This document shows, in pieces, positions 9,274 to 46,714 of a stretch of DNA of 64,000 bases. Position 1 is the first letter of the stretch, and the number at the start of each line of letters is the position of its first letter. The stretch is from contig CP175956.1 of assembly GCA_046116545.1 (NCBI GenBank), positions 77,219 through 141,218 on the forward strand. Direction: 5' to 3'. The notes under the pieces are model-generated. The model was not told the origin of the DNA and ran no database searches. It was given only the letters and a program-made list of their open reading frames with translations. A program made the position numbers and the translations under genes. The DNA is from Candidatus Moraniibacteriota bacterium (GTDB lineage: Bacteria; Patescibacteriota; Minisyncoccia; Moranbacterales; GCA-2747515).

Positions 9274-9490
9274 GTCTTTGCGAACAGAAGTGATGCTTAC
9301 TGTGTTATGTGAAGCAATCTCAAAAGTTTATAAATAATCTAACCGAGATTGCTTCGTCGTACCTCCTCCACCCAGGTGGTCCATCTACTACGCTTTAAAT
9401 TCAGAATAGTCGCTATACAGCTCCTTTCTTCATTTATCTTGAACAGAGTTCAATTTATTATGCCCTTGTGGTACACCTTGACGCAATGAC
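9274..9490. repeat. Palindromic element family A, long variant. It has unit I (gtctttgcgaaca...gtgaagcaatctc) and unit II (gagattgcttcgtcgtacctcctccacccaggtggtcc...), and extends to cttgaacagagttcaatt...caccttgacgcaatgac.
   Basis: Two-stem imperfect palindrome. gaagcaatctc pairs with gagattgcttc, and gtctttgcga pairs with tcgcaaagac. The sequence recurs at 12 or more further sites. Confidence 0.8.
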
Positions 9491-9571
9491 GCACTTTTTT
9501 GAGGCTTGTTTGAGAGTGTTAGGGATTACAAAATATTTAAATTCTATCATTTTCGTAAAACAAACTTTTTG

Positions 9572-9712
9572 GTAGGGACAGTGCCTTGTGCCTGTCCATT
9601 CAAATTTTAGAAATCCTTTATCCGGAATCTAAACTTTAATATTATAGTATAGATTCCGGACAGATTTATTTGTATTCTGATATCTCGGACAGGCACAAGG
9701 CACTGTCCCTAC
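9572..9712. repeat. Palindromic element family C. A 26-bp inverted-repeat pair (gtagggacagtgccttgtgcctgtcc / ggacaggcacaaggcactgtccctac) flanks about 90 bp that contain a nested palindrome (ccggaatctaaac...tagattccgg).
   Basis: The perfect 26-bp inverted repeats are read directly from the sequence. Single arms recur at 15751..15776 and, degenerate, at 45184..45241. Confidence 0.75.
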
Positions 9713-9856
9713 CAAATAATATCTTCCGGAATGGCACAGGCCTATGTTTATTTGTTAATTGAGATTGGGTGTAGTATGTAAAATTCTTGAATTCTAACCA
9801 ATTTAAAAAGACATGACTAACATCATGTCTTTTTATTAAAATTTCATTTTTGAAAT

Positions 9857-11170: not shown

Positions 11171-12112
11171 TCACCTAAATTTATCTTTATTTTGCAAATA
11201 AAATGGAATTGCTATTAAGCTAACTAGCATCTGTAAGACTCTCGATAAAATAACAACTGTCACTGCAGCACTAGCACTCACTCCAAATATTCCAAACAAA
11301 AATACATAAGCCCATTCTTTCACACCAATATTACCCATACTTATAGGAACAGCAGCAATTATACTTGATAAAAATATAACACTCATAAAATCTTCCACAG
11401 ATAAACAAATCCCTATCGACTTAAATAGTAAATAATTTGCGATGGCAACTCCTACAAAAGCAAATACAAAAGCATACAATAAAGACTTAGTCATTATTTC
11501 AATATTTCTAAATTTAGCAAGTTGCTTTATATATACTTGTATAAAATTTGGTAATAAATTTATAAAATACCTTATGAACCTACTGTTAAAAAATATTATA
11601 ACAATAACGAATGTAGTAATTGTAATGATCAGTCCATATACTATCCAGACTATTATTTCATGATCTATCAAAACTTTAAAATTATAAAATGCAAAAATGA
11701 TTGATAAAATCATAATACCAATAAGCCCACTAATCCTATCAACAACAATTGTTGTTGAGCTCTCACTCACTCTACCAACAGGCTTCCCTAGTGAATACGC
11801 TCTATACGTATCCCCACCAATAAAAGAAGGGAGAAAATTGTTCAAAAAAGTTCCAAGTAAATATGACTTGATGTAGAAAATAAATTTATTAGTAAATTTT
11901 TTAAATCTAGCTATAATTTGCCATTTACGAGCACTTATCACAATTCCCAAAATATAAAAAATCACAAATGCAATAATATAATAAATATTTGCACCTACTA
12001 TATATCCCCACACCTCCGTCCAATCAACATTGATTATCAATAAAAATACCAAAAAAGAAGATATGGCTATCTTCAAAAAAGTTTTACATTTACTATTATT
12101 TTTACAAATCAT
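11171..12112 (-). CDS. Polytopic membrane protein, flippase-like (UPF0104 / lysyl-PG synthase TM-domain-like)
   Basis: 313 aa with about 8 TM helices. The motif FLPSFIGGDTYRAYSLGKP is typical of this family. Confidence 0.45.
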   Translation of the reverse strand: MICKNNSKCKTFLKIAISSFLVFLLIINVDWTEVWGYIVGANIYYIIAFVIFYILGIVISARKWQIIARFKKFTNKFIFYIKSYLLGTFLNNFLPSFIGGDTYRAYSLGKPVGRVSESSTTIVVDRISGLIGIMILSIIFAFYNFKVLIDHEIIVWIVYGLIITITTFVIVIIFFNSRFIRYFINLLPNFIQVYIKQLAKFRNIEIMTKSLLYAFVFAFVGVAIANYLLFKSIGICLSVEDFMSVIFLSSIIAAVPISMGNIGVKEWAYVFLFGIFGVSASAAVTVVILSRVLQMLVSLIAIPFYLQNKDKFR

Positions 12113-12141
12113 TTTTTATTATTATGTCAGTTGTTTTACAT

Positions 12142-12229
12142 GAGATTGCTTCGTCGTACCTCCTCGCAAAGACGATATCTAGTCATTGCGAACAGAACCA
12201 AAATCATCTGTGACCTGTGAAGCAATCTC
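12142..12229. repeat. Palindromic element family A (unit II then unit I, opposite order to 9274)
   Basis: gagattgcttcgtcgtacctcctcgcaaagac ... gtcattgcgaacagaacc...gtgaagcaatctc. Confidence 0.8.
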
Positions 12230-12236
12230 GATCATT

Positions 12237-12539
12237 TTATCCATTTTCTATCATTTTACCATATAAATCAACCCACTCAATATTACTATTTTCAATCAAT
12301 GCAATTTTATTTTTACGCGAACCACTTTTTATTTGTTTTTCTCTAGAAATTGCAGACTCAATTGATGGACATACTTCATAATGTACTAACTTATGCAAAT
12401 TATATCTTTGAGTAAATCCCCTTACAATATTATTTTTGTGTTCCCAAATTCGTTTTTGCAAATTAGTAGTAACTCCAACGTACAAAGTACCATCTTTTTT
12501 ATTCGTTAAAATATACACGCACGAAATTTTTTCATTCAT
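12237..12539 (-). CDS. GIY-YIG domain nuclease family protein (UPF0213-like)
   Basis: Motifs VYILTNKKDGTLYVGVTTNLQKRIWEHK and RPW-like. It is flanked on both sides by family-A repeats. Confidence 0.75.
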   Translation of the reverse strand: MNEKISCVYILTNKKDGTLYVGVTTNLQKRIWEHKNNIVRGFTQRYNLHKLVHYEVCPSIESAISREKQIKSGSRKNKIALIENSNIEWVDLYGKMIENG

Positions 12540-12575
12540 AATTTTGTCATATAATAAATCTCATGTCTTCATCTC

Positions 12576-12680
12576 GTCTTTGCGAGCAACTGTGACTTTT
12601 ATTATGTCTAGCGAAGCAATCTCCACCAGGTTTATTAATATACTCACTAAGATTGCTTCGTCGTACCTCCTCGCAATGAC
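12576..12680. repeat. Palindromic element family A. Its unit II overlaps the 3' end and supplies the stop codon of the GT4 gene.
   Basis: gtctttgcgagcaactgtgac...gcgaagcaatctc / ctaagattgcttcgtcgtacctcctcgcaatgac. On the minus strand, unit II reads ...V S L R G G T T K Q S stop. Confidence 0.8.
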
Positions 12681-13831
12681 ACATTATTATATAGCTCAAC
12701 ATACTCATTTGCCACATTTTCCCAGTTCATTGTCTCCGCTATCAATCTACTTGCATGTCCCATACCATCACATATTTCTGGATTTTCTATTAATATTTTT
12801 AATTTTTCTACGATTGACTGTACATCATTCATTTTTATGAGATAACCATTTTCTCCATTTCTCACAAGCTCCTCCGCTCCACCTGTTGGTGTCATGAGCA
12901 CTGGAAGACCTGATGCCAATGCTTCTAATAAATTATTACTCATTCCTTCATTTAACGATGGCATCACAAATACATCCGCACTATTATAGATACCTGCAGA
13001 TTCTTCCTTTGTATACAATCCACTAAATGTTACTCGTCCATCTAATCTATATTTTTTCACCTGAGCTTTTAACTCTTCCATTGCATTTCCCTCTCCCCCA
13101 GCTATTTGCATTTTGATATGAGGATACATATCAAATAATTCCACAAAAGCATCTATCGCATAATTAAATCCCTTTCGCCTTGATATTCTAGAAGCTAACA
13201 AAATTTTAAATTCTTTTTTTCTATCTTCAACTGTCCTGCTGCTACTACTATAAAAATCTGTATCCACTCCATTAAATATTTGTACAAATTCTTGTTCTGG
13301 CATAGTACTACTAGCAAGCTCTGTAAGACCTTTACTATTTGTTACAACATAATGTGCATCTTTCCATACTTTGTGAATTGTTGGTGTAATGATTTTATAT
13401 AATTTTTTAAATCTTTCACTGTAACCTGGCACATCAGCACCTCGCAGAGATACAATATATGGAATACCATATTTCTTTTTTAATCTTCTTGATATCACAC
13501 CACTAGGCACAGCAAAAAAACTATGCGTCAAATCATAATCATTTCTAGCAATTAATTTTTTGGCAAATTGATATGCCCTAAACGTGTACTTCAATAATTC
13601 TCCTTTTGTTTGATAATTTAAATTATTTGCACTTTTGCCTATTGGAAGTCTATGTATTATTATATTTTCCCCAACTCTCTCTTGCACGTATTCATCTATA
13701 ATTGAAGATGTAACAAGATCAACAAAAACATCATCTCGACGAGAATACTCATCCAAGATGTATTTTGTAGCATTTGCAGCACCACCTCCAAGTGGAGGAT
13801 ATTCATAATTAAAAAATAATACTCTTTTCAT
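12647..13831 (-). CDS. GT4-family (GT-B fold) glycosyltransferase. Its C-terminal 10 aa and stop codon are encoded by a family-A repeat.
   Basis: N-terminal motif FFNYEYPPLGGGAANA, and a C-terminal domain with an E-x7-E-like segment (FVMPSLNEGMSNNLLEALASGLPVL). It ends ...SLRGGTTKQS. Confidence 0.8.
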   Translation of the reverse strand: MKRVLFFNYEYPPLGGGAANATKYILDEYSRRDDVFVDLVTSSIIDEYVQERVGENIIIHRLPIGKSANNLNYQTKGELLKYTFRAYQFAKKLIARNDYDLTHSFFAVPSGVISRRLKKKYGIPYIVSLRGADVPGYSERFKKLYKIITPTIHKVWKDAHYVVTNSKGLTELASSTMPEQEFVQIFNGVDTDFYSSSSRTVEDRKKEFKILLASRISRRKGFNYAIDAFVELFDMYPHIKMQIAGGEGNAMEELKAQVKKYRLDGRVTFSGLYTKEESAGIYNSADVFVMPSLNEGMSNNLLEALASGLPVLMTPTGGAEELVRNGENGYLIKMNDVQSIVEKLKILIENPEICDGMGHASRLIAETMNWENVANEYVELYNNVSLRGGTTKQS

Positions 13832-15543: not shown

Positions 15544-15590
15544 GATAGCCTGTGGATAAACTTGAACAGTTATAGAATTATATCCAACCA

Positions 15591-15632
15591 AAACCACCCC
15601 TCAGTCCCCTCCTTAAAAAGGAGGGGAGGTAA
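15591..15632. repeat. Hairpin element family B, part 1 (accacccctcagtcccctccttaaaaaggaggggagg)
   Basis: Near-identical copies lie at 41471..41510 and 45381..45420. A variant lies at 19851..19880. Confidence 0.7.
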
Positions 15633-15635
15633 AAA

Positions 15636-15672
15636 CTAAACTAAACTAAACTAAACTAAACTAAACTAAACA
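15636..15672. repeat. Pentanucleotide microsatellite (ctaaa), about 7 copies
   Basis: Direct tandem ctaaactaaactaaa..., read from the sequence. Confidence 0.85.
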
Positions 15673-15750: not shown

Positions 15751-15776
15751 GTAGGGACAGTGCCTTGTGCCTGTCC
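15751..15776. repeat. Family C arm, single copy
   Basis: gtagggacagtgccttgtgcctgtcc, identical to the 9572 arm. Confidence 0.7.
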
Positions 15777-15850
15777 GAGATATTACTTTACAAATAAATT
15801 CATCAGGAATTTACACTATACGATTATTTCAAATCTTTAGTAACATTCAA

Positions 15851-15905
15851 GCCTCTCCCCTTTTTTAAAGGGGGAGATGTCCTAAGGACAGAGGGGGTTC
15901 CACGC
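15851..15905. repeat. Hairpin element family B, part 2 (ctctcccctttttt aaagggggagatgtcctaaggacagagggggtt)
   Basis: Copies lie at 19931..19980 and 41373..41420. Confidence 0.7.
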
Positions 15906-18333: not shown

Positions 18334-19842
18334 TTGATATACTGTTTATATATTCACATTGAAATAAATACTAAAATGTTACATAAAAAAAATATTACAA
18401 TTGCAAATTCAACAATATTCTTAACTATCCTGTGCTTATTATTTTTTGGCATGACTAAATTTTCTTTTGCTGCTGAGTGGCGCTATGAGGGGGTTGCCTA
18501 TTATGTACCAACCTCATCAAGTAATAACCTTCCTATATATCGATTTTATTCTCCGAAAAATAAATCTCATTTCTTTACAAAGTCAAAATCAGAAAAAGAT
18601 GCTATTATCAAAAAATATCCTACAACAGAGTGGAGATATGAAGGAGTTGCCTATTATGTGCCAAAGTCCTCAACAGGAAACCAGGCTGTTTATCGATTTT
18701 ATTCTCCTAGCAAAAAAACACATTTCTTTACAAAATCAAAATCAGAAAAAGATGCTATTATCAAAAAATATCCCACAACAGAGTGGCGATATGAAGGAGT
18801 CGCATATTATGTGCCAATAACTTCTACTAACAATAAACCTGTATATCGATTTTACAATACTATAAACAAGGCACATTTTTTTACAGCCTCAGAAAGTGAA
18901 AAGATTAGGTTAACTGCTAGTATTTATGGACCGTATATTTCTATTGGACTTCATGAATATTCACGTAGCACACTAAAAGACTCTGCATTCAAAATTGACT
19001 CAAAAAAAGATTATCTCATCAAAGACAAAAATGGTACAACAATTGCAAAAATTAAGGCTGGTGTACAAACAAAAGTTAAATATGATTCTGATGGAAATTT
19101 AAAAATATATAATTCCATATCAGAAAAAAAAGTTAATAAAGAGGTTAGATTTGAAGCAGCTGATGGAAACAATAGTGGTATGATATTTGATATACACAAA
19201 CCAGAATCTGATTTTGATGAATACCGTGGCAAAACAAAACTACGTTATAGTGATACAAGCAAAAATATTTGGGTTATCAATGAATTACCATTGGAATATT
19301 ATATTTGGGGTATGGGTGAAATCACTGGAACAGGTCCAATGGAATATAATAAAATGATGACCACAGCATATCGTACATATGGTTATTGGAAAATCCTCTA
19401 TTCCACCAAGTATGCTACTGAAGGATTTAAAGTAAATGCAACGCCTGGTAATCAAATTTATTATGGTTATGAATGGGAAAAAAGGTATCCTCGTATTAGA
19501 GAAGGAGCTGAATCAACACGTGGGAAAATTGCAAAACATGGTGATGATGTGGCATTAACTCCTTACTCAAGCTGGACTGATGGCAAGACACGTAGTTTTG
19601 AAGAACATTGGGGATCAACACTATATCCATGGTGTCAGTCTGTATCAGACCCTTATGGTGATTATAATGGTGACTATTGGGACAATTCATATAAAAGTAC
19701 ATCCGACCTTGTAGCAAGTGGCAATCATATGGTAGGTATCAGTGCACATGGAGCACTAACACTAGCAAATGATAAAAATTGGAATTGGGACAGAATTATG
19801 AAATACTATTTAGATGGAATTAATATTGTTTCAATTTATTAA
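18334..19842 (+). CDS. Secreted SpoIID/LytB-domain protein with three N-terminal 42-aa tandem repeats
   Basis: Signal peptide, then three copies of EWRYEGVAYYVP...PVYRFYSP.NK.HFFT.S.SEK. The C-terminal domain has SpoIID-like motifs INELPLEYYIWGMGEI...AYRTYGYW and YPWCQSVSDP. Confidence 0.65.
   Translation: MIYCLYIHIEINTKMLHKKNITIANSTIFLTILCLLFFGMTKFSFAAEWRYEGVAYYVPTSSSNNLPIYRFYSPKNKSHFFTKSKSEKDAIIKKYPTTEWRYEGVAYYVPKSSTGNQAVYRFYSPSKKTHFFTKSKSEKDAIIKKYPTTEWRYEGVAYYVPITSTNNKPVYRFYNTINKAHFFTASESEKIRLTASIYGPYISIGLHEYSRSTLKDSAFKIDSKKDYLIKDKNGTTIAKIKAGVQTKVKYDSDGNLKIYNSISEKKVNKEVRFEAADGNNSGMIFDIHKPESDFDEYRGKTKLRYSDTSKNIWVINELPLEYYIWGMGEITGTGPMEYNKMMTTAYRTYGYWKILYSTKYATEGFKVNATPGNQIYYGYEWEKRYPRIREGAESTRGKIAKHGDDVALTPYSSWTDGKTRSFEEHWGSTLYPWCQSVSDPYGDYNGDYWDNSYKSTSDLVASGNHMVGISAHGALTLANDKNWNWDRIMKYYLDGINIVSIY
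18475..18860 (+). repeat. Three 126-bp (42-aa) tandem coding repeats
   Basis: Periodicity is visible in the DNA and in the protein. The alternate-frame ORF 18467..18820 is an artefact of this periodicity. Confidence 0.8.
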
Positions 19843-19850
19843 TAACCACC

Positions 19851-19980
19851 ACTCAATCACCTCCTTTAAAAGGAGGTGAGATAAAAACTAAACTAAACAG
19901 AATTAAAGTTAAGTTAAATTAATCATACTATCCTCTCCCCTTTTTAAGGGGGAGATGTCCGAAGGACAGAGGGGGTTTTG
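19851..19980. repeat. Hairpin element family B (part 1 variant + ctaaa x2 + part 2)
   Basis: tcacctcctttaaaaggaggtga ... ctctcccctttttaagggggagatgtccgaaggacagagggggtt. Confidence 0.7.
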
Positions 19981-20604: not shown

Positions 20605-22467
20605 ATGAGAAACATCAAAAATATATATCTAATAATACTTGCATTATTTTTAATAGCATTTCCCACAGTAATTCATGCACAATCAAAATTGCCATCAATC
20701 CCCATACAATCAATCGCAGCTGAAAAAAACTATGTTGAAGGTGAAGTAATTGTAAAATATAAAATAAATACAAAAAAACAACAATTACTAAAAACATCTA
20801 CAGAAAAAAATGAATCACCAAGACTACTGCAATCTCTACAGGAAACACAATCCATGCATGATCTAAAAATAAAAAATACATTCAAAAATTTAAATATCAC
20901 AACATTACAATCAGATATACAATCAACCCAAGATTTAATAACTAAACTAGAACAAGATCCTGAAGTGGAATATGCGGAACCTAACTACAGAAAATATCCT
21001 ACATCAATACCAAATGATACTTATTTCAAAAGTACACAATGGGCACTATACAATACAGGACAGGAACTTTGTACACCTGACTGCACTACAGGAACAATCG
21101 ATGATGATATTGACGCAACAAATGCTTGGGATATAGAGATTAGTGCTGCCCAAAAAATAACCGTTGCAGTAATAGACAGTGGCTTAAATTATAATCACGA
21201 AGATTTATTACAAAATTTATGGAATGGTGCTAGTTGTGTAAATGAAAATGGAACAACTATACATGGTGGTTGTCCATATCATGGATGGGATTACGCCGAT
21301 AATGACAATAATCCTGCTGATACTACTGGAAGTGCGCAAGGACATGGAACAAGCGTTTCAAGTATATTTGGTGCAACAACAAATAATTCAAAAGGACTTG
21401 CAGGCATCAGTCTATATGGCAATGTAAAGGTTATGGCACTTCGATTTGATTTGGATACAATCTCTGAAATAAAAGCTATTGAATTTGCAAAAAATAATGG
21501 TGTCAAAATTATAAATGCAAGTTTTGCAGGAGATGCCTATTCACAATCAGAAAAAGATGCTATTGATGCATTTCCTGGAATATTTATAACAGCATCTGGC
21601 AACGGTGGCATTGATGGCTTACGTGATAACAATGACGTTACACCGCAATATCCATGTAATTATTCATCAAGTAATATAATATGTGTAGGTGCATCTGATC
21701 AAAATGATAATCTTGCTAGTTTTTCAAATTATGGACAAACAAGCGTTGATTTAGTGGCTCCTGGAGTAAATATATTAATTGCTTGTGATAATGTCTACTG
21801 TACTGGTGATGGTACTTCATTTTCTACACCCTACGTAACAGGTGTTGCTGCAATCTTGTCTAGCCACAATACAAAATTGTCTACATCACAAGTGAAAAGT
21901 TTAATACTTGATAATGTCGATAATGTTGGACTATCAACACAGATAAAAACGGGAGGTCGTCTTAATATGTATAAATCTCTTTACGATTTGAAAACTAGTT
22001 ACGGATATTCATACTCCACAAAACCAGTTTACAGATTCTATTCACCAAGCAATAAAGCACATTTCTTTACTGTATCCGAAACTGAAAAGAATCATATTGT
22101 TGCAACTTACCCAACCACTGAATGGCGATATGAAAATATTGCTTATTATGTACCAACAACATCTACTGGCAATAAGCCTGTGTATAGATTCTATTCACCA
22201 CGCAACAAAGCTCATTTTTTCACTGTATCAGAAACTGAAAAGAATCATATTGTTGCAACTTACCCAACCACTGAATGGCGATATGAAAATATTGCTTATT
22301 ATGTACCAACAACATCTACTGGCAATAAGCCTGTATATCGATTTTATTCTCCACGTAACAAAGCACATTTCTTTACTGTATCAGAAAGTGAAAAGAATCA
22401 TATTGTTGCAACTTACCCAACCACTGAATGGCGATATGAAAATATTGCTTATTATGTACCAAAATAA
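20605..22467 (+). CDS. Secreted subtilisin-like serine protease (peptidase S8) with three C-terminal 42-aa tandem repeats
   Basis: Signal peptide. Catalytic triad motifs VAVIDSG (Asp), HGTSVSS (His) and GTSFSTPYVTGVAA (Ser). The C-terminus has three near-identical repeats PVYRFYSPRNKAHFFTVSETEKNHIVATYPTTEWRYENIAYYVP. Confidence 0.85.
   Translation: MRNIKNIYLIILALFLIAFPTVIHAQSKLPSIPIQSIAAEKNYVEGEVIVKYKINTKKQQLLKTSTEKNESPRLLQSLQETQSMHDLKIKNTFKNLNITTLQSDIQSTQDLITKLEQDPEVEYAEPNYRKYPTSIPNDTYFKSTQWALYNTGQELCTPDCTTGTIDDDIDATNAWDIEISAAQKITVAVIDSGLNYNHEDLLQNLWNGASCVNENGTTIHGGCPYHGWDYADNDNNPADTTGSAQGHGTSVSSIFGATTNNSKGLAGISLYGNVKVMALRFDLDTISEIKAIEFAKNNGVKIINASFAGDAYSQSEKDAIDAFPGIFITASGNGGIDGLRDNNDVTPQYPCNYSSSNIICVGASDQNDNLASFSNYGQTSVDLVAPGVNILIACDNVYCTGDGTSFSTPYVTGVAAILSSHNTKLSTSQVKSLILDNVDNVGLSTQIKTGGRLNMYKSLYDLKTSYGYSYSTKPVYRFYSPSNKAHFFTVSETEKNHIVATYPTTEWRYENIAYYVPTTSTGNKPVYRFYSPRNKAHFFTVSETEKNHIVATYPTTEWRYENIAYYVPTTSTGNKPVYRFYSPRNKAHFFTVSESEKNHIVATYPTTEWRYENIAYYVPK
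22018..22464 (+). repeat. Three near-identical 126-bp tandem coding repeats
   Basis: The copies differ at only a few nucleotides. The alternate-frame ORF 22097..22525 is an artefact. Confidence 0.85.
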
Positions 22468-22540
22468 AATAATACCTACCAACTCATCGCCATTGCTAGG
22501 AAGTACAACGAAGCAATCTCAATAATAAACTCCAGCATTC

Positions 22541-24926: not shown

Positions 24927-24933
24927 CACAAGA

Positions 24934-26346
24934 CTATACAAAACAACTCTCCTTATCAAATCCCTTTCTCTCCCCTCTACCACTCTGTTCAATGAAAAAT
25001 GCATCATCCTTTTTATACGTATGCTCACCATGTCGCACACGGATATAATTATATCTATGTGTCGAATAAGCAGAATCACCATTCTCAATGATACGCCCCA
25101 CTAACTCAGCATCAATTGACTTTTTTATACTGGCAAACTTATATTTTTTCATGTCATCTGTTCGTATCAATATAGTTCCACCAGGCAGATGTGACCACCA
25201 ACGATCCTCCGCCTGCTCTCCAAACTCTATCATGACATCACTTTGCTCCAGATACGTAAAATTACCAGTCTTACCCACAATAGTAGCTTGTGAATAATGC
25301 AAGGCAAGATAGATATCATCTAAATGATTTGGACCATAATAATCATCATCATCCATTTTTGTAATATAATCTCCTGTGGCATTATCAACTCCAATATTTA
25401 AATTGTCTCCAAAAATTGTTAATGCATCTTTTTGTATAATCCTCACATCATAAGCCAAGTTCAATGTTTTAGATTTTATTTCATCAACATCAAACTCATC
25501 TCCATGCAATATCAAAATCAATTCTTTATTTGGATAATTTTGCAAAGAAATATTTTCAAATAATTGATTAATGTTCTCTGGACGCATAGTCGAAACAATG
25601 ATTGAAATTTTTTCCAACTTCTTTTTTTCAGACATGTTTATTTGTCCAAACTCAGTCATAACATATCGCCTCAAAACAATACTAAGTTTTTCTCTATAAA
25701 ACAAATCTTCACACTTCATTACAAATTCATCGGCATCATCATATGAACCAATGAAATTCATATATTCTTTTGGTATATATTTTTCCAAAGATGCTTTATC
25801 TCCCACTATCAAAGGCGCTCCCATTGCCATCAATTTCAATACACACCTAGTATAAGCATATTTTGTCTCAAATAATTCATCATCACAAATAACTACACTA
25901 CATAACTTCAATTTTTCTTTATCATATTTATCAGAAAAATCAACAAAATATTTTTTAATTTCGCTATAATTACTAAAATGCTTATCAAAAATACCTGTTT
26001 TAAATAAACTTTTCAGTTTCTTATTATTTCGCCTCTCCCCCACAATACAAATTTTTTCATTAGGATTATTTTGCCAATTGATTGGATTGTATTTCAATAT
26101 ATCTACAATACATTTGGCATTCTTCACATCATTTTCATCACACCCGCACATCTCATCAATTTTCTTACTACCATTTGCTACAAATATCAATTCTTTATTT
26201 TTATTTTCAAATAATATTTTACAGCAATTAACTGGCAGAGTAATGATTTTTACAGAACTTTTTACAGAACGAAAAAATAGCGCCTTTAGCCGCTCTTTTT
26301 TCGTTTCAAAAGTTAAAATATTTTCGATAATATTTAGATTTTTCAT
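24934..26346 (-). CDS. Two-domain protein with a C-terminal GT2-like glycosyltransferase domain
   Basis: C-terminal half has SIIVSTMRPENINQLFENISLQNY...LILHGDEFD and a DDD motif. Confidence 0.5.
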   Translation of the reverse strand: MKNLNIIENILTFETKKERLKALFFRSVKSSVKIITLPVNCCKILFENKNKELIFVANGSKKIDEMCGCDENDVKNAKCIVDILKYNPINWQNNPNEKICIVGERRNNKKLKSLFKTGIFDKHFSNYSEIKKYFVDFSDKYDKEKLKLCSVVICDDELFETKYAYTRCVLKLMAMGAPLIVGDKASLEKYIPKEYMNFIGSYDDADEFVMKCEDLFYREKLSIVLRRYVMTEFGQINMSEKKKLEKISIIVSTMRPENINQLFENISLQNYPNKELILILHGDEFDVDEIKSKTLNLAYDVRIIQKDALTIFGDNLNIGVDNATGDYITKMDDDDYYGPNHLDDIYLALHYSQATIVGKTGNFTYLEQSDVMIEFGEQAEDRWWSHLPGGTILIRTDDMKKYKFASIKKSIDAELVGRIIENGDSAYSTHRYNYIRVRHGEHTYKKDDAFFIEQSGRGERKGFDKESCFV

Positions 26347-34902: not shown

Positions 34903-36318
34903 TTATTTTTTGCTCCATTCGTGTTCAATGCGCATTATTCCTACTCCAGACCCTTTTTGTTTTTTAATTTTGATAATATGATTATTTAGTTCTTTTGTTG
35001 AATTAGAATCCACAATATCATTTTGTCCACTTTTATTTTCAAATAAAACAGCTTTTATATATATTTCCCCCGTGTTAAACATCGTGTTTTTAAAATAAAT
35101 TATAAATACATTTCTATCTTTTTGCCAACTGCAATTAAAATTATCTACATCTGTATTATTACCACACAAAAATACATTTGTTTCATTGTCAAAAATTTGC
35201 ACTGCTTGCACAAGATTATGCTTAATTTTTGAAACTTGCACTTCAATCTCTACAAAAAAATCATCACCCCATGTAATTTCAGTTAATTTATTTCTATCTA
35301 TATCAAAAACCTGTATATCTGTAATTATATTTTCATTTTTCACTTGTCTTTTCATACCACCTCTTAGTGATTTCTCATGTTCCTGCTCTTCTTTTTCAAT
35401 CCGTTCCTTTTTTTCTAATTCTTCACGTTGGTCTTCAGACATATTTTTAATAATATATTCATCACATACATCATTCACATCACCAGAACCAAGTAATTCA
35501 CCCTTATGTAATAATAAAGCTCTATCACAATATTCTCGCACTGTTGCCATACTGTGGGTTACTAATATTACAGTTTTTCCCCTCTCTTTATATCCTCTGA
35601 AAATATCAAGACACTTCTCTTGAAATCTACTATCCCCCACAGCCAATACCTCATCCATAATAAGTATTTCACGATCTGCATGAATTGACACACTGAAAGC
35701 GAGACGAGCCTTCATGCCACTTGAATAATTTTTTAATTGTTCGTCTATAAATTTTTCTAATTCTGCAAATGCGACTATTTCATCAAACTTTTCATCAATT
35801 TGTTTTTTTGTTAAACCTAGTACTGTCGCATTGAGATATATATTGTCTCGTCCTGATAATTCTGGATTAAAACCTATTCCTAGCTCAAGGAATGGTGATA
35901 TCATACCATTTACCTCAATTGATCCAGATGTTGGTTGATAAACACCTGCTAAAATCTTTAACAATGTAGACTTACCTGCCCCATTATGTCCTATAATTCC
36001 CAAAAATTCTCCTTTTTTTACTTCTACTGAAATATCTTTGAGAGCGTAGAATTCTTCATATGTATTTTTTTTCAAAGAATTCACAAAAGCACTTTTCATT
36101 GAATCAATTTTTTTGTGAGGAATTTTAAAGATTTTTGAGACGTTTTTTACTTTTACTGCTATTTCTTTATCTGGCTGAGATTGCTTCGTCGTACCTTCTC
36201 CACCCAGGTGGTCCCTCTCTTGAACAGAGTTCAATTCACCTTGACGCAAAGATGCATCTTTTTTTACTTTGATGCTTTTATCTTTTTTATTTGATTGTTG
36301 GTTATTTTTTTTATTCAT
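34903..36318 (-). CDS. wzt: ABC transporter ATP-binding protein of the Wzt/TagH/KpsT polysaccharide-export type, with a C-terminal substrate-binding (Wzt_C-like) domain. It carries an in-frame 84-nt family-A insertion near the N-terminus.
   Basis: Walker A GHNGAGKST, signature YSSGMKARLAF and Walker B ILIMDEVLAVGD. An extra ~180-aa beta-rich C-terminal domain is present. The N-terminal leader contains SLRQGELNSVQERDHLGGEGTTKQSQP, encoded by repeat A. Confidence 0.8.
   Translation of the reverse strand: MNKKNNQQSNKKDKSIKVKKDASLRQGELNSVQERDHLGGEGTTKQSQPDKEIAVKVKNVSKIFKIPHKKIDSMKSAFVNSLKKNTYEEFYALKDISVEVKKGEFLGIIGHNGAGKSTLLKILAGVYQPTSGSIEVNGMISPFLELGIGFNPELSGRDNIYLNATVLGLTKKQIDEKFDEIVAFAELEKFIDEQLKNYSSGMKARLAFSVSIHADREILIMDEVLAVGDSRFQEKCLDIFRGYKERGKTVILVTHSMATVREYCDRALLLHKGELLGSGDVNDVCDEYIIKNMSEDQREELEKKERIEKEEQEHEKSLRGGMKRQVKNENIITDIQVFDIDRNKLTEITWGDDFFVEIEVQVSKIKHNLVQAVQIFDNETNVFLCGNNTDVDNFNCSWQKDRNVFIIYFKNTMFNTGEIYIKAVLFENKSGQNDIVDSNSTKELNNHIIKIKKQKGSGVGIMRIEHEWSKK
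36177..36251. repeat. Palindromic element family A, long unit II, inserted in-frame in wzt
   Basis: gagattgcttcgtcgtaccttctccacccaggtggtccctctcttgaacagagttcaattcaccttgacgcaaagat. This is the reverse complement of the intergenic copy at 24850..24926. Confidence 0.85.
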
Positions 36319-41934: not shown

Positions 41935-44900
41935 TTATTTAATTAACTTTTTAAAAATAAACACACTAACAATCATCAAAAATAATAGGAATATTCCAAT
42001 CAAAATATCTTTGATTGATTTTTTGTTTTCGGAATTATTATCATCTTTTATTTCCTTATTTTCATTTTCTACTGTATTGTTTTGAGATTTCTCTACTTCG
42101 GTCGAAATAACGTCCTTTTCATTTGCCACATCATCCCCCAGAGATTGCTTCGTCGTACCTCCTCGCAAAGACTCATTATTAAAAATATTTTCCGTAATAT
42201 TATTTTTTTCGTCATCGTCATCATCATTGTCTTTGTCATCATCTTTATTTTCATTGCTTTCACTACTACTAAATACTGTACTTCCATCATTTCCATCCTC
42301 TAATGTAGTAGTTCCATTGATTTGTGGTACAACTTCATAATCATTACTTCCATCACCATCATAATCAGCTGTGAGTCTTGTAATATTTTCCAATCCAGTT
42401 CTTGGAATTGCAAAACTTACTTTTGTATTTTCTGATGTTGGTAGATTTTCCATTGTTAGATATGAGGTTACTTCTTCTCCTGCCTCCGTGATACTCACTT
42501 CCTCTAATTTGATAGTATATGAACCTGTATTATAACCATCCAACTCCACGATTATATCACTACCACCCCATCCTACAAATTTATGTTCTCCAAATACATC
42601 GTAATAACTATTTGGCATATTTTCTTCTATAATTTGATTTCCATTTTCATCTATTATGGGTCCTGTGTGATTTCCTTGATTGTCGTATAAATGAATGTCT
42701 AGTGGTGAATATAATGCCATTCTAAGTCTTTTTGCACTGTGTTTACTATGCTTTATTGCGTCAGTGTCATCTGGTCTATTTTTCGTGATATAATCAGACA
42801 ATTCTTCTTGAATTTCATGTTTACTGATGATATTTGAGATTAAATTTCGTAACGACTTAACTTCTAAAATATCTTTGTGCTTTCTATCTTTCGCAAAACC
42901 CTTATTTTCTTCATACATATCCAAAAAATATTTCTCAACATTCTCAGATTCTGACATCATAAGTGAACTTGGTGTTACTACAACATTATCTCCATCTACT
43001 GTATATTTTGGTATATATGATTCTACTGTTACATCTTTGCATTTCGTTCTTTTTATTCCTTCTTTTGTTACTTTATCTTCACATTCTACTTTTGTGATAC
43101 TTTCATAATCTATTTCACTTATTGTATCAAGCCCCCAGCCTCCTATTTGTATTAGATTTACATTTTCTGGTGGTGTCCAGTTATTTAACTCTTCGTGCAA
43201 TTCTTTATTTTCATCAAATAATTTCTCATTTAATATATTTGCTCTTTTTGTATCATTCTTATTTGGTTTGTGTCTATTATCTTTTTTTGCCAATAGAAAA
43301 TCCTTGAATTCATCATAACTATTTATTGTATCTCCATATGCTTTTTTGTATTTCTTGTATTCTGATTTTTCTGATTTAAAATTTATTATTGGTTTATCTA
43401 TTCTTCTGAAATATTCTTCTGTTGGTAAAAGTCCATAAGCAGATGGCATATTTCGTACTACCTCCCTAGCTTCTGCGTCACTGATAACTGAATTTAATTC
43501 TATTTTTTCATCAAATCCATACAACATTGTCAAGATTGCCTTTGATGTTCCCATTTGTGGTGAACTTACCATGACAATATTATCAACTTTATCTGTCATG
43601 TTCAATATTTCAAGTTGTTGCATTATGGATTTTGCTAGTAATCCACCATTTGAATGAGCTACAATTGTAACTTTTCCACTAACTGATGAGTCAGATAATC
43701 TCATCACTTCACTTATTGGATTTTTTATAGAACTCATTTCATAATTTGTTCCATTTATTGCAATATCGTCTACACTTTTTCTCCAATCATATGCATATAA
43801 AGAATAATCATTTATTATTCTATCATCTTTTAAGTTTTTTAAATCTCCAAAAAATCTTTTGTAAATATTTGGAGCTAATACACTAGGAAGTCCTGCTTCA
43901 TAAATTGGCTCTTCAGTGAAAATATCATTTATACTATTTCCATCTTCATCTAATAATATATTTTTGTAATCATCTCCACCTGGAGTAGGTGGCCATACTT
44001 GATTTGTACCGTCATATAATCTGCTAGCTTTTGCACCTGGTAAAAACAATACATTTGATGCAAAATCCGATGATCCTCTCCAATCGTATTCTAATACATT
44101 TGTATCTCCGCTTACTTTTTCACCTGCTGCTAATATTGCATAATCGTCTCCATTTTCATTAACAAAGTTACCTGTTGGACCGTTTGTATGTCCGTACCAA
44201 TTATTTTCTAAAATAACCTTGCTACTGTCATGAGTCATTGCATCATTTTCACATGTTTCACAACATGCATCATAAATAGCATCATTTTGATTATTGTTAT
44301 ATTCATCATCACAGTTATCATAACAAATATCTTCTCCTTCAAAGTCATAAACTACAACATTTGAAATTACTGCTATATTTTGTCCACTTTCTTCAAAATT
44401 AGAATTTTTAATATGTACATAACTATTTTCATTGTAATCTTCTTCAAGTTCCATCTCTACTTGAATATCTGCATACTTGCTATTTTTGAAAATAACATTT
44501 TCCATATCTAATTGTCCTGACATATGTAGTATTGCTGGTGCTTTTCGAATAGCTTCTTCATCTGCATAAACATTATTTGTTATGATGTCATGTATTGCTA
44601 TCCCTGGACAATGTAATTCATTGTAATCAAAATATTCTCCCAATCCATCAAATTCTACAAATTTAAAAAATGATGGTTCAAATATATAACCATCAATTTC
44701 ATACGTATCAAATTTAAATGCTGAAACTCCACCTAAATCACACTGCTCATCAAACTCATTTCCTTCATTAAATGGAGTTTTTGTAAAAACTATTTTATTA
44801 TCAATATCGCCAACTGCAACAATACGTCCAGCATCTTGTACTACGATATGCTTTATTGATATATGTGATCCAGCTTCAATAGTTACTGTTGCACCATCAA

Positions 44901-45090
44901 TGATATATACCGCACCATACTCACTCAAATCTGTATCACTGTTCCATGTTACATCTGTAGTAATATATAAGTCATCACCATACCAAGCGTTTATATATTT
45001 GTGTATATATAAAAAATCAAATCGCAATGGTGCGAGAATGATTATTAGGATTAGAATTGTATTGATCGACTTTAAGATAAAGTTTTTCAT
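41935..45090 (-). CDS. Large secreted alpha/beta-hydrolase (lipase/esterase, LCAT/PGAP1-like) with an acidic low-complexity region, an in-frame family-A insertion and a C-terminal TM anchor
   Basis: Signal/TM N-terminus. Nucleophile-elbow-like VTIVAHSNGGLLAKS. Acidic tract DDDKDNDDDDDEKNN. Insertion NESLRGGTTKQSLGDD. C-terminal TM ILIGIFLLFLMIVSVFIF. Confidence 0.55.
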   Translation of the reverse strand: MKNFILKSINTILILIIILAPLRFDFLYIHKYINAWYGDDLYITTDVTWNSDTDLSEYGAVYIIDGATVTIEAGSHISIKHIVVQDAGRIVAVGDIDNKIVFTKTPFNEGNEFDEQCDLGGVSAFKFDTYEIDGYIFEPSFFKFVEFDGLGEYFDYNELHCPGIAIHDIITNNVYADEEAIRKAPAILHMSGQLDMENVIFKNSKYADIQVEMELEEDYNENSYVHIKNSNFEESGQNIAVISNVVVYDFEGEDICYDNCDDEYNNNQNDAIYDACCETCENDAMTHDSSKVILENNWYGHTNGPTGNFVNENGDDYAILAAGEKVSGDTNVLEYDWRGSSDFASNVLFLPGAKASRLYDGTNQVWPPTPGGDDYKNILLDEDGNSINDIFTEEPIYEAGLPSVLAPNIYKRFFGDLKNLKDDRIINDYSLYAYDWRKSVDDIAINGTNYEMSSIKNPISEVMRLSDSSVSGKVTIVAHSNGGLLAKSIMQQLEILNMTDKVDNIVMVSSPQMGTSKAILTMLYGFDEKIELNSVISDAEAREVVRNMPSAYGLLPTEEYFRRIDKPIINFKSEKSEYKKYKKAYGDTINSYDEFKDFLLAKKDNRHKPNKNDTKRANILNEKLFDENKELHEELNNWTPPENVNLIQIGGWGLDTISEIDYESITKVECEDKVTKEGIKRTKCKDVTVESYIPKYTVDGDNVVVTPSSLMMSESENVEKYFLDMYEENKGFAKDRKHKDILEVKSLRNLISNIISKHEIQEELSDYITKNRPDDTDAIKHSKHSAKRLRMALYSPLDIHLYDNQGNHTGPIIDENGNQIIEENMPNSYYDVFGEHKFVGWGGSDIIVELDGYNTGSYTIKLEEVSITEAGEEVTSYLTMENLPTSENTKVSFAIPRTGLENITRLTADYDGDGSNDYEVVPQINGTTTLEDGNDGSTVFSSSESNENKDDDKDNDDDDDEKNNITENIFNNESLRGGTTKQSLGDDVANEKDVISTEVEKSQNNTVENENKEIKDDNNSENKKSIKDILIGIFLLFLMIVSVFIFKKLIK
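42141..42172. repeat. Palindromic element family A, unit II, inserted in-frame (encodes SLRGGTTKQS)
   Basis: gagattgcttcgtcgtacctcctcgcaaagac. Exact match to intergenic copies. Confidence 0.85.
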
Positions 45091-45321: not shown

Positions 45322-45380
45322 GCTACACAAATGATACTGATTTTTCATTTAAAATTTGTTTTATACTTACGTTATATACA

Positions 45381-45420: not shown

Positions 45421-45482
45421 TATTAAACTTACACAAAATAGATATTACATAATATTATAGGATTTTCTCAAACTTTTCGAAA

Positions 45483-45514: not shown

Positions 45515-46714
45515 TTATTTTAACTTACTTTTTAAATACTCATAATATTCCGCATTCTTTGTATTTTGTGTTGTATATTCTTTTATTGTTTTTTGATATG
45601 CTTTTTGTCCCATTTTGATTCTTAGATCTTTATTTTCTATTAACTGTGCTAGTTTGTCTGTCCATTCTTCTGAGTTTTTTGCTGTGAATCCATCCACTCC
45701 ATCTTCAATAGCATCTTGATATGTTTGATTGTCTATTGCTATTGTTGGAACTTTTACTATTCCTGCCTCAAAAAACTTTAATTCTGACTTTGCTTCACAA
45801 AATGGATTATTATATTCTAATGGCGCAAGATTAATATCACATTGTGCTATATTTGCAAAATGTTTACTACGCTTCACGTAGGGTAATTGTTTAATTCTAT
45901 CTCCAAACTTTTTCACTAAATCATTTTCAACATCCAATGGACCGACTAATAATAACTCTACATTTTTATACTTTTCCATTATTGTCATCAATGGTTCTGT
46001 GATTGTTGCAAAATCTTTGTTGTGGCTTATTGTTCCACTGAAGTAGCCTAGTTTTACTATATCCTCTCGAGATTGCTTCGTCGTCGTACCTCCTCCTCGC
46101 AATGACAATAAAGCTTTTTTTGCACCATCAATATCTTTTTTTGATAATTTATTTTGTACTATGAAAACTTCTTTATTTTCTTGTCTTAATTTGTTTGCAA
46201 GAAATTTTGTGGTTGTGGTTGCGACTTTCACATATTCATCTTTTAATATTTCTCCACCCACTCCATTTTCATAAAGCTTCTTTTCCAGACTATTCATTTT
46301 TTTATAATAATCCATATGTTCTAAATATTTTGGATCATATACCAAATCATCTGTTTCAAAAATGATTATCTTATTTTGTTTTTTTATTTCTTCTACTAGC
46401 TTTGCTATTTTTTTTGTATTTAAAGTTCTATGAAAAATAAATATTGAAAATTTATTTACATAACTAACTAGTCTTGGATTATCTTGTACTGTAACTGAGC
46501 ATTTGAATCCATTAAATTCTAATTCTTCGGCTATATGAGTTGTCCTGTGTAACGCACTATCACCTACTCCACCTGAAATAAATAAAATGTCTCCACTGCC
46601 AACCTTGCGAAATAATGCAAAGAACGCACTTAAAACACGTTTTGAACCATTGATGAGTCCATCTCGTTTTATTACTTGCCACGACTTTCCTATTTTAATT
46701 AAGAATGTATTCAT
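45515..46714 (-). CDS. GT-B fold glycosyltransferase (GT1/GT4-like) with an in-frame family-A insertion in the inter-domain linker
   Basis: C-terminal Rossmann domain with an E-x7-E-like segment (CEAKSELKFFEAGIVKVPTIA). Linker contains LSLRGGGTTTKQSRED. Confidence 0.55.
   Translation of the reverse strand: MNTFLIKIGKSWQVIKRDGLINGSKRVLSAFFALFRKVGSGDILFISGGVGDSALHRTTHIAEELEFNGFKCSVTVQDNPRLVSYVNKFSIFIFHRTLNTKKIAKLVEEIKKQNKIIIFETDDLVYDPKYLEHMDYYKKMNSLEKKLYENGVGGEILKDEYVKVATTTTKFLANKLRQENKEVFIVQNKLSKKDIDGAKKALLSLRGGGTTTKQSREDIVKLGYFSGTISHNKDFATITEPLMTIMEKYKNVELLLVGPLDVENDLVKKFGDRIKQLPYVKRSKHFANIAQCDINLAPLEYNNPFCEAKSELKFFEAGIVKVPTIAIDNQTYQDAIEDGVDGFTAKNSEEWTDKLAQLIENKDLRIKMGQKAYQKTIKEYTTQNTKNAEYYEYLKSKLK
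46068..46106. repeat. Palindromic element family A, unit II, with internal triplet duplications, inserted in-frame
   Basis: gagattgcttcgtcgtcgtacctcctcctcgcaatgac. The tcg and cct triplets are duplicated relative to the canonical unit. Confidence 0.85.

What the first reader, a model, noticed from the sequence alone, without database searches (positions are those of the whole stretch)
12576..12680. A family-A element supplies the last 10 codons and the stop codon of a GT4 glycosyltransferase
The GT4 protein ends ...ELYNNVSLRGGTTKQS. Its final 33 nt, ctaagattgcttcgtcgtacctcctcgcaatgac on the plus strand, are unit II of a complete family-A copy. A single G->A change (gagatt to aagatt) creates the TAG stop. 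This looks like C-terminal gene remodelling by repeat insertion.
Basis: seen in the sequence. Interest (0 to 1): 0.7.

Follow-up and report, generated by a model that had tools for sequence, protein, structure and literature searches.

The report
Repeat element forms a glycosyltransferase's tail
A small palindromic repeat landed on the very end of a sugar-transferase gene in an uncultured Patescibacteria genome and now encodes its last ten amino acids and stop codon; this kind of event is already known, but the repeat family proved to be tightly linked to a small GIY-YIG nuclease gene.

Summary
The GT4 gene (12647..13831, minus strand) ends ...ELYNNV-SLRGGTTKQS*. Those ten codons lie in a 30-nt repeat unit. 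The stop is the unit's last tail base plus two spacer bases.

Of 120 orthologues, 119 end 0-8 residues after the conserved ...LYxx(I/V/M). The one that shares the peptide carries the same element at the same nucleotide. Profile alignments and an AlphaFold model place residues 385-394 outside the fold.

The "single G->A" detail is only partly right. The T-tail variant is common in the family, and a TGA follows one codon later anyway.

The element is an inverted pair of REP-like hairpin units: (C/T)GTC tag, ATTGC/GCAAT stem. It resembles the CGTC-tagged REPs of Di Nocera et al. 2013, which include Rickettsia RPE-4 and RPE-6. That class is already known to sit inside genes and at their ends. I therefore rate the finding a new member of a known kind.

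Two other genes in the window carry the same unit in the same frame.

The new lead is a small GIY-YIG nuclease gene. It is flanked by these units here and in most of the 80 metagenomic relatives examined. CGTC REPs were reported to lack a dedicated enzyme.

The parts
12647..13831 (-). GT4 glycosyltransferase CDS, 394 aa. Residues 1-384 are orthologous sequence. Residues 385-394 and the stop are repeat-derived.
   Evidence: ORF list; Pfam; NCBIfam model alignments end at residues 383-385; orthologue C-termini; AF2 last helix 370-382, pLDDT <50 for 389-394.
12649..12680 (-). Short REP-like unit ('unit II'): tag GTC, stem ATTGC, core GAGGAGGTACGACGAA, stem GCAAT, tail CTT. In the gene's frame it encodes SLRGGTTKQS and supplies the T of the TAG.
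   Evidence: Sequence; 5 copies versus 0 expected; the exact 24-mer core occurs in at least 120 stretches from several phyla.
12647..12649 (-). TAG stop codon: last tail base of the unit plus the first two bases of the dimer spacer.
   Evidence: Sequence. Sister composites read TCT CAG TAA (15511 copy) and TCT TAG (17157 copy).
12624..12648 (.). Spacer of the inverted pair. It is conserved among the composites at 12628, 15491 and 17137.
   Evidence: Repeat family D6.
12576..12623 (+). Long REP-like unit ('unit I', 48 nt with tail), inverted relative to the short unit. Together the two fold as one long hairpin.
   Evidence: Repeat families D5 and D8; census; folding as DNA -16.3 kcal/mol (z -3.6) and as RNA -32.6 kcal/mol (z -3.1).
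12237..12539 (-). GIY-YIG nuclease gene (100 aa, UPF0213/YhbQ-like), inserted between the GT4 gene and the LPG-synthase-like gene and flanked by units on both sides.
   Evidence: Pfam PF01541 at 1.3e-17; PDB 1ZG2 UPF0213 at 1.5e-5; absent from this junction in the six relatives where the junction is held (L001, L002, L005, L206, L207, L209).
12182..12229 (+). Long unit 7 nt downstream of the GIY-YIG stop codon.
12141..12176 (-). Short unit, identical core to 12649-12680, just upstream of the LPG_synthase_TM gene.
11171..12112 (-). Downstream LPG_synthase_TM-family gene. In compact relatives it abuts or overlaps the GT4 stop.
   Evidence: Pfam; synteny in L001, L002, L005, L206, L207 and L209.
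42143..42172 (-). Same short unit, in frame inside ORF 41935..45090 (…NNESLRGGTTKQSLGDD…), within a low-complexity C-terminal region.
46071..46106 (-). Same unit (36-nt variant), in frame inside a second glycosyltransferase (45515..46714): …ALLSLRGGGTTTKQSREDI…, in the inter-domain linker.
   Evidence: Orthologue alignment shows an insert relative to most homologues. DNA of L210, L212 and L211.

Best explanation
The last ten codons and the stop of this GT4 gene come from a small palindromic repeat. The gene itself did not supply them.

The repeat is an inverted pair of REP-like hairpin units. Each unit has a (C/T)GTC tag, a 5-bp ATTGC/GCAAT stem closing a variable core, and a 3-nt tail. The pair sits in the junction between the GT4 gene and the next gene. 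In compact relatives that junction has no free space.

Shown:
- The join lies exactly at the first base of the unit, inside codon 384.
- The ribosome then reads the 30-nt unit in the frame that gives the hydrophilic peptide SLRGGTTKQS.
- Translation stops at a TAG made of the unit's last tail base plus two spacer bases.

Inferred:
- The tail is an unstructured, probably neutral appendage beyond the last helix of the GT-B fold.
- The unit is tolerated in coding sequence because it is a multiple of three and is open in five or six of its reading frames. It can therefore decorate protein termini and linkers, as Rickettsia palindromic elements do.
- The element was copied in by an enzyme acting in trans. 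The best candidate is the small GIY-YIG nuclease whose gene, here and in most relatives, sits between two inverted units of this same family. On this reading, the ORF-less pairs are miniature derivatives of that element.
For: Repeat origin:
- 5 copies versus 0 expected in the window.
- 17 units of the family in 64 kb, 14 of them intergenic.
- The exact 24-nt core occurs in at least 120 stretches of Bacteroidota, Patescibacteria and other phyla, nearly all intergenic and mostly in the same inverted-pair layout.

Not ancestral to GT4:
- 119 of 120 orthologues lack the peptide and end 0-8 residues after LYxx(I/V/M).
- Model alignments end at residues 383-385.
- In the AF2 model the last helix is 370-382 and residues 389-394 have pLDDT below 50.

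Same join in an independent assembly: L001.

Empty sites and a tight ancestral junction: L206 has an ATGA overlap and L005 a 13-nt gap.

General tolerance in coding sequence:
- Two more in-frame copies in the window.
- Orthologue and DNA comparison for the second GT.
- A GH2 gene ending ...SSLRGGTTKQSH* (L098) and an MmeI-like gene with an internal copy (L104).

GIY-YIG link:
- The gene in the window is flanked by units on both sides.
- In 80 metagenomic loci of relatives, unit density is 8.4/kb within 150 nt of the gene against 0.42/kb beyond 600 nt.
- 51 of 61 loci with adequate flanks have units on both sides.
- The usual layout is unit, ORF, inverted unit.
Against: - No strain-level filled/empty pair was available, so the exact boundaries of the inserted DNA and any target-site duplication are undefined.
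- The NJ tree cannot say whether the window and L001 share one ancestral insertion or were hit independently. Their nearest relative in the tree, P0002, has an empty site.
- A deletion that fused the CDS to a repeat already lying downstream would give the same end state.
- Nothing shows that the tail is translated or that the protein is active.
- The GIY-YIG link is a positional association only. The window's own arrangement (short>, <long, ORF, <long, short>) is not the commonest layout. The two flanking units usually differ in their cores: core identity of at least 0.8 in only 8 of 42 loci.
- A 100-aa catalytic-domain-only GIY-YIG protein has no known transposase activity.
Confidence: 0.85

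Rival explanations
1. Fusion by deletion rather than insertion. A REP pair already lay a few bases downstream of the GT4 stop. A small deletion or stop-codon loss then removed the native last codons and spacer, so translation ran on into the repeat.
For: In relative L002 a degenerate unit lies about 25 nt downstream of the intact stop. The GT4/LPG-synthase junction holds repeats of several families in L001, L002 and L209. Di Nocera et al. 2013 report that REPs preferentially lie within 20 bp of ORF 3' ends.
Against: The coding sequence joins the unit precisely at its first tag base in both the window and L001. An insertion predicts this; a random deletion would rarely produce it. No remnant of spacer or stop lies between codon 384 and the unit.
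Confidence: 0.12
2. The repeat has been co-opted. Either the tail, or the RNA hairpin formed by the inverted pair at the 3' end of the GT4 message, has a function (message stabilisation, uncoupling from the downstream gene), and this is why it is retained in two genomes.
For: The join is retained in two genomes whose GT4 proteins are only 83% identical. The pair folds better than shuffles, z about -3. REPs are proposed to act as post-transcriptional elements (PMC3733652).
Against: The two genomes stop at different places (…KQS* versus …TTK*), and the unit is partly deleted in L001, so the peptide is not conserved. No terminator-like site is present. The tail is predicted disordered. Most close orthologues do without it.
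Confidence: 0.1
3. The peptide is the ancestral GT4 C-terminus, and the dispersed copies are fragments of this gene.
For: None beyond the shared sequence itself.
Against: 119 of 120 orthologues lack it. The unit occurs intergenically in several phyla with its own inverted-pair architecture. It lies beyond the end of every GT4 profile.
Confidence: 0.01
4. Assembly artefact: a chimeric join at a repeat in a metagenome-assembled contig.
For: Repeats do break assemblies. Contig L208 ends 6 nt after the GT4 stop.
Against: Gene order UGDH-GT4-LPG synthase is conserved across the join (L005, L206, L207), with GT2 upstream in L005. An independent assembly (GCA_029940505.1) has the same join at the same base.
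Confidence: 0.02

Closest known systems
CGTC-tagged REPs (Di Nocera, De Gregorio & Rocco 2013, PMC3733652), which include Rickettsia RPE-4/RPE-6 and Neisseria dRS3
   Same: - Unpaired (C/T)GTC tag.
- Stem beginning with A-T, T-A pairs.
- A 3-nt tail: CCA in many of the metagenomic relatives, CTC/CTT in the window.
- Mostly arranged as inverted dimers, often with partners that have different cores.
- Mostly intergenic near ORF 3' ends, with a minority inside genes or at their ends.
   Different: - The outer stem is only 5 bp and closes an 11-26-nt core, against an 8-9-bp stem and a 4-5-nt loop.
- Found here in Patescibacteria, a phylum not covered by that survey.
- That survey found no associated enzyme gene, whereas this family is flanked around a GIY-YIG gene.
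Rickettsia palindromic elements (Ogata et al. 2000; cited from my own knowledge and via PMC3733652 and PMC3184786)
   Same: Short palindromic repeats inserted in frame into protein-coding genes. They add peptide segments at permissive sites without destroying the gene.
   Different: Different sequence family and host. RPE-1 is about 100-150 nt. The case here is a C-terminal replacement or extension that also supplies the stop. No sequence comparison with RPEs was run.
REPIN-RAYT systems and REPtrons (Bertels & Rainey 2011, PMC3116915; Nunvar et al. as summarised in PMC3184786)
   Same: Two inverted REPs with a spacer form the mobile doublet. The single-copy enzyme gene sits between inverted REPs: REP 5'->3' on the N-terminal side and inverted on the C-terminal side.
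   Different: REPINs carry a GTAG tag and are tied to an IS200/IS605-type tyrosine transposase. Here the tag is CGTC-like and the flanked gene is a GIY-YIG nuclease. No mobility has been shown.
Small repeats and MITEs fused to chromosomal reading frames (Delihas 2007, 2011; PMC3184786)
   Same: [quoted passage not shown]
   Different: Those are enterobacterial, pneumococcal and cyanobacterial families, several of them IS-derived with target-site duplications. No duplication or parent IS is seen here.

Membership tests
CGTC-tagged REP superfamily (Di Nocera et al. 2013) | Unpaired terminal CGTC (or TGTC/CCTC) tag | tested here: met
   All 17 window units begin GTC (one GCC). The copy in GT4 is preceded by T (TGTC). 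Copies in other genomes are mostly cGTC or tGTC.
CGTC-tagged REP superfamily (Di Nocera et al. 2013) | Stem whose first two positions are complementary A-T pairs | tested here: met
   The stem is ATTGC...GCAAT. Alternative complementary stems occur in relatives: ATCGC/GCGAT and ATTCT/AGAAT. Some window copies have GTCTTTGC, which mismatches at the first pair.
CGTC-tagged REP superfamily (Di Nocera et al. 2013) | Stem of 8-9 bp and loop of 4-5 nt | tested here: not met
   The outer stem is 5 bp and the interior is 11-26 nt, sometimes with its own inner hairpin. I therefore call it CGTC-like and do not assign it to families CGTC-1 to CGTC-4.
CGTC-tagged REP superfamily (Di Nocera et al. 2013) | Three-base unpaired tail, consensus CCA | tested here: inconclusive
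   The tail is CTC or CTT in the window. It is CCA in many GIY-YIG-linked relatives such as L147, L144 and L174.
CGTC-tagged REP superfamily (Di Nocera et al. 2013) | Predominantly inverted dimers; intragenic copies occur | tested here: met
   Inverted pairs in the window and across phyla. In-frame copies in three window genes and in L098, L104 and L034.
REPIN/RAYT system | GTAG-tagged REP doublets associated with an IS200/IS605-like tyrosine transposase | tested here: not met
   The tag is GTC, not GTAG. The gene between the units is GIY-YIG (PF01541). The rest of the genome could not be searched for a RAYT.
Classical MITE | Terminal inverted repeats, target-site duplication and a parent IS with a transposase | tested here: inconclusive
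   The pair has matching outer ends (GTCWTTGCGAG / CTCGCAAWGAC). No duplication is visible at the GT4 join. Empty sites are too diverged to decide. No IS parent was seen.
Rickettsia palindromic elements | Sequence membership in RPE-1 to RPE-8 | not tested
The resemblance is in behaviour, plus the CGTC tag reported for RPE-4 and RPE-6.
GT4 glycosyltransferase (host gene) | GT-B fold with Glyco_transf_4 and Glycos_transf_1 domains | tested here: met
   Pfam. AF2 model with mean pLDDT 91.6.
GIY-YIG nuclease superfamily, UPF0213/YhbQ-like | GIY-YIG catalytic domain as the whole protein, about 100 aa | tested here: met
   PF01541 at 1.3e-17, covering residues 7-79. Best solved relative is 1ZG2, UPF0213 BH0048. 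Catalytic activity is not testable here.

The most novel reading that the evidence does not exclude
The ATTGC-stem, CGTC-like REP family is the non-autonomous partner of a very compact element found across Patescibacteria and Bacteroidota. That element consists of REP unit, roughly 290-nt GIY-YIG nuclease ORF, inverted REP unit. On this reading the GIY-YIG protein is the long-missing dedicated enzyme of a CGTC-type REP family. It either mobilises the units or homes into the spacer of empty pairs. The GT4 tail would be a by-product of that activity, which also decorates linkers and termini of other proteins.
Probability: 0.35. Interest if true: 0.75.

Novelty: new member of a known kind. Interest (0 to 1): 0.42.

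Why it matters
For the finding itself:
- It is a clean, comparison-backed example of a selfish repeat rewriting a protein's C-terminus in the small, tightly packed genome of an uncultured Patescibacteria bacterium.
- In these genomes, genes abut or overlap, so almost any insertion at a gene junction must touch coding sequence.
- It is a caution for annotation. Peptides such as SLRGGTTKQS, VIARRYDEAI and HCEEVRRSNL at protein ends or in linkers are repeat-derived.

For the wider lead:
- CGTC-type REPs, including the Rickettsia elements that insert into genes, have had no known enzyme.
- A strong cross-phylum positional link to a GIY-YIG nuclease gene gives a concrete hypothesis for how such repeats spread. 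It can be tested in culturable Pedobacter or Flavobacterium.

Tried and rejected
- Rfam, at gathering thresholds on the whole window and at E <= 10 on 12100-12720, found no RNA family.
- There are no tRNA or tmRNA genes, so this is not a tRNA-linked island.
- No intrinsic-terminator-like site was found, and promoter-like sites are not clearly above shuffles (7 found; shuffles mean 3.9, sd 1.9) in 12050-12750.
The only candidate is 'atgtaa' at 12140-12135, just after the last unit. It does not align with relatives, whose GT4 stop overlaps or abuts the next gene's start. I dropped it.
- No target-site duplication is visible. The empty sites are too diverged to tell.
- An NJ tree meant to decide one insertion versus two left window, P0001 and P0002 as an unresolved trio.
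- I tested whether the two units flanking GIY-YIG genes are matched copies. The excess is modest: core identity of at least 0.8 in 8 of 42 loci, against 4.7% between loci. They behave like the 'heterodimers' of REP dimers.
- Full-text searches for the sequence motif, for GIY-YIG with REP, RAYT or MITE, and for YhbQ/UPF0213/COG2827 found no report of the association. The library is incomplete, so prior description elsewhere cannot be excluded.
- My first frame labelling of ORF-embedded copies was off by one base. It was redone by direct translation.
- An apparent resemblance between the unit's 5' end and the sequence at the empty sites (GCATTGCA in L211, TCAATG in L002) was not pursued. It is not in register.

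Full report
**1. The observation**

- The minus-strand ORF 12647..13831 encodes 394 aa and ends ...ETMNWENVANEYVELYNNVSLRGGTTKQS*.
- It is a GT4 glycosyltransferase: Glycos_transf_1 at 5.6e-35, plus Glyco_transf_4.
It recurs 5 times in the window at up to 3 mismatches, against none in 100 shuffles.
- On the gene strand the sequence reads G|TCA TTG CGA GGA GGT ACG ACG AAG CAA TCT TAG.
- The first G is the third base of codon V384. The next ten codons are S385-S394.
- TAG is the last base of the repeat's 3-nt tail plus the first two bases of the spacer.

**2. Anatomy of 'family A'**

- Repeat finding and a motif census show that 'unit I' (46-48 nt) and 'unit II' (30-36 nt) are the same kind of unit.
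- The shared plan is GTC, then (A/T)TTGC, GA, a variable core, GAA, GCAAT, and a tail CTC or CTT.
- The window holds 17 such units: 10 long and 7 short.
- The 'complete copy' at 12576-12680 is a long unit on the plus strand, a conserved spacer of about 25 nt, and a short unit on the minus strand.
- It is therefore an inverted pair. Its outer ends (GTCTTTGCGAG / CTCGCAATGAC) and inner ends (CGAAGCAATCTC / AAGATTGCTTCG in this copy; GAGATTGCTTCG in most others) are complementary.
- It folds as one long hairpin better than shuffles: as DNA -16.3 kcal/mol (z -3.6), as RNA -32.6 kcal/mol (z -3.1).
- Rfam has no match. There is no terminator-like site.

**3. Is the tail repeat-derived?**

- A search of 5.8 billion proteins gave 120 listed orthologues (50-83% identity, Patescibacteria), typically 384-387 aa.
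- Their C-termini all run ...W..VA.EY..LYxx(I/V/M), followed by 0-8 unconserved residues, for example LYKSI*, LYKSM*, LYKTIKN*, LYNKIDKK*.
- Only P0001 resembles the window: ...LYEKVSLREGTTK*.
- Its DNA (L001, GCA_029940505.1) has the same inverted pair joined at the same nucleotide (aag gtG|TCATTGCGAG...).
- In L001 the short unit is partly deleted, so a TGA stops translation two codons earlier. A second ORF-less pair follows.
- NCBIfam GT4 models align only up to residue 383-385.
- An AlphaFold2 model (57-sequence alignment, mean pLDDT 91.6) ends its last helix at 382 and gives pLDDT below 50 for 389-394.

**4. The junction in relatives**

Gene order UGDH-GT4-LPG_synthase_TM is conserved, with a GT2 gene further upstream. 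The gap between GT4 and the next gene varies as follows.

| Locus | Gap between GT4 and next gene | Content |
|---|---|---|
| L206 | -4 nt | Stop overlaps the start (ATGA) |
| L005 | 13 nt | No repeat |
| L207 | 61 nt | No unit motif seen |
| L002 | 169 nt | A degenerate unit about 25 nt after the stop |
| L209 | 343 nt | A different repeat family |
| L001 | 405 nt | Two pairs |
| Window | 535 nt | Pair, GIY-YIG gene, two more units |

- The ancestral junction was tight, so anything landing there had to touch coding sequence.
- No relic of a displaced native stop could be recognised.
- An NJ tree leaves window, P0001 (filled) and P0002 (empty) unresolved. One ancestral insertion and two hits at the same site cannot be separated.
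- The similar spacers and similar bases after the pair favour a shared origin.

**5. The G->A claim**

- Position 12649 is A where four other copies have G.
- The copy at 17157 also has A, and tails ending in T are frequent in other genomes.
- With G the frame reads TCT CAG TGA. In this frame the pair therefore supplies a stop within one codon either way.
- The sister composites read TCT CAG TAA (15511) and TCT TAG (17157).

**6. The same unit in other coding sequences**

- In the window it lies in frame, in the same orientation and frame, in ORF 41935..45090 (…NNESLRGGTTKQSLGDD…).
- It also lies in a second glycosyltransferase, 45515..46714 (…ALLSLRGGGTTTKQSREDI…).
- For that second gene, most of the 120 listed homologues have no insert at that inter-domain linker.
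  - P0121 and P0125 have the same unit.
  - P0122 has a long-core version.
  - Several others carry peptides typical of other hairpin-repeat families at the same spot.
  - The DNA confirms a perfect unit in L210, a long one in L212 and none in L211.
- In other phyla:
  - a GH2 glycosidase gene ends …SSLRGGTTKQSH* (L098);
  - an MmeI-like enzyme has the peptide between two domains (L104);
  - a HemN-like gene has the reverse-strand frame between its domains (L034).
- The short unit is 30 nt and has no stop in five frames (six in the GTCTTT variant). This explains why it, and not the long unit, is found in genes.

**7. What the element is**

- Most are Bacteroidota. Others are Patescibacteria, Sulfurimonas, Methylophaga and a Limiplasma MAG. 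The usual layout is the same inverted pair.
- Sister units with other complementary stems (ATCGC/GCGAT, ATTCT/AGAAT) indicate that pairing is maintained.
- The (C/T)GTC tag, the A-T start of the stem, the 3-nt tail (CCA in many relatives), the inverted dimers with unlike partners, the position near ORF 3' ends and the occasional intragenic copies all match the CGTC-tagged REPs of Di Nocera et al. 2013 (PMC3733652).
- That paper places Rickettsia RPE-4 and RPE-6 in this class.
[quoted passage not shown] - The stem and loop dimensions differ: 5 bp with an 11-26-nt interior, against 8-9 bp with a 4-5-nt loop. I therefore call the family CGTC-like. I do not assign it to families CGTC-1 to CGTC-4.

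**8. The GIY-YIG link (outside the original claim)**

- The 100-aa gene at 12237..12539 is a GIY-YIG nuclease (PF01541 at 1.3e-17; nearest solved relative UPF0213 BH0048, 1ZG2). It is flanked by units on both sides.
- Among the 120 genome stretches chosen only for the unit, five more have a homologue within about 90-140 nt.
- The reverse test used 80 metagenomic loci encoding relatives that are 53-69% identical.

| Distance from the GIY-YIG gene | Units per kb |
|---|---|
| Within 150 nt | 8.4 |
| 150-300 nt | 3.3 |
| Beyond 600 nt | 0.42 |

- Of 61 loci with adequate flanks, 51 have units on both sides. About three quarters of the nearby units (164 of 218) have the ATTGC stem.
- The usual layout is a unit on the gene strand 8-40 nt before the ATG and an inverted unit 1-11 nt after the stop.
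- The ORF therefore occupies the spacer of an inverted pair, as RAYT genes do in REPtrons.
- Di Nocera et al. state that CGTC REPs lack a dedicated transposase. I found no paper linking GIY-YIG genes to REPs.
- This is an association and does not demonstrate mobility. The flanking units are matched copies in only 8 of 42 loci.

**9. Verdict**

- The event is a new example, in Patescibacteria, of a known phenomenon: REP- or RPE-type repeats decorating protein ends.
- The likely consequence for the enzyme is a disordered, neutral ten-residue tail.
- The part worth following up is the cross-phylum GIY-YIG/REP association.

Noticed in passing
window 12141-12680; loci L126-L205, L012, L030, L031, L090: A UPF0213/YhbQ-like GIY-YIG nuclease gene sits between inverted units of the same repeat family, here and in most of 80 metagenomic relatives. 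Unit density is 20-fold higher within 150 nt of the gene than beyond 600 nt. Units lie on both sides in 51 of 61 loci with adequate flanks. I found no report of this link.
   Followed up: yes
window 42143-42172 and 46071-46106: The same short unit lies in frame (SLRGGTTKQS / SLRGGGTTTKQS) inside two other genes: a 1051-aa protein with a lipase-like domain, and a second glycosyltransferase.
   Followed up: yes
orthologues of window 45515..46714 (P0121-P0240): The inter-domain linker of this glycosyltransferase family is an insertion hot spot. Different orthologues carry peptides typical of other hairpin-repeat families there, for example CHSERSEES..., EISRQARND..., VIPTEMEGS... and MKHVTCNMK...
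   Followed up: partly
genome loci L006-L125: An exact 24-nt core of the unit is shared by Bacteroidota, Patescibacteria, Sulfurimonas, Methylophaga and a Limiplasma MAG. This is unusual conservation for a short repeat and suggests constraint or horizontal spread.
   Followed up: partly
L098:4040-6862, L104:2991-6383, L034:870-2111: In other genomes, a GH2 glycosidase gene ends ...SSLRGGTTKQSH*. An MmeI-like restriction-modification gene has the peptide between domains. A HemN-like radical-SAM gene carries the reverse-strand frame (YCFVVPPRNDA) between its domains.
   Followed up: partly
window 9337-9386, 24885-24937, 36169-36218: Hybrid units begin like the short unit (GAGATTGCTTCGTCGTACCTCCTCC) but continue ACCCAGGTGGTCC. 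One abuts the 3' end of ORF 24934..26346. One lies in the 5' part of ORF 34903..36318, whose true start may be downstream.
   Followed up: no
window 15589-15670, 19841-19922, 41470-41551, 45379-45420; also 15855-15899, 19933-19977, 41376-41420: Two further dispersed repeat families: ...CCTCAGTCCCCTCCTTAAAAAGGAGGGGAGG... and ...CTCCCCTTTTTTAAAGGGGGAGATGTCCTAAGGACAGAGGGGG.... The second also fills the GT4/LPG-synthase junction in relatives L001 and L209.
   Followed up: no
window 62374-62427 and 45454-45507: A canonical-looking CGTC REP hairpin, TGTCATTCCTGCGTAGGCAGGAATC (8-bp stem, 4-nt loop), is present as an inverted pair of distant copies.
   Followed up: no
window 18389-18994, 22034-22486, 37232-37690: 153-nt (51-codon) repeats, tandem and dispersed, lie inside three large ORFs on both strands. 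They are probably a repeated protein domain.
   Followed up: no
window 9559-9725 and 15751-15826: Another palindromic repeat, ...GGTAGGGACAGTGCCTTGTGCCTGTCC..., with 39-nt arms that are 90% complementary and 89 nt apart.
   Followed up: no
L206:2640-2660; L208 end: In relative L206 the GT4 stop overlaps the start of the LPG_synthase_TM gene (ATGA), which suggests translational coupling that the insertions abolish. Contig L208 ends 6 nt after the GT4 stop, possibly an assembly break at a repeat.
   Followed up: no
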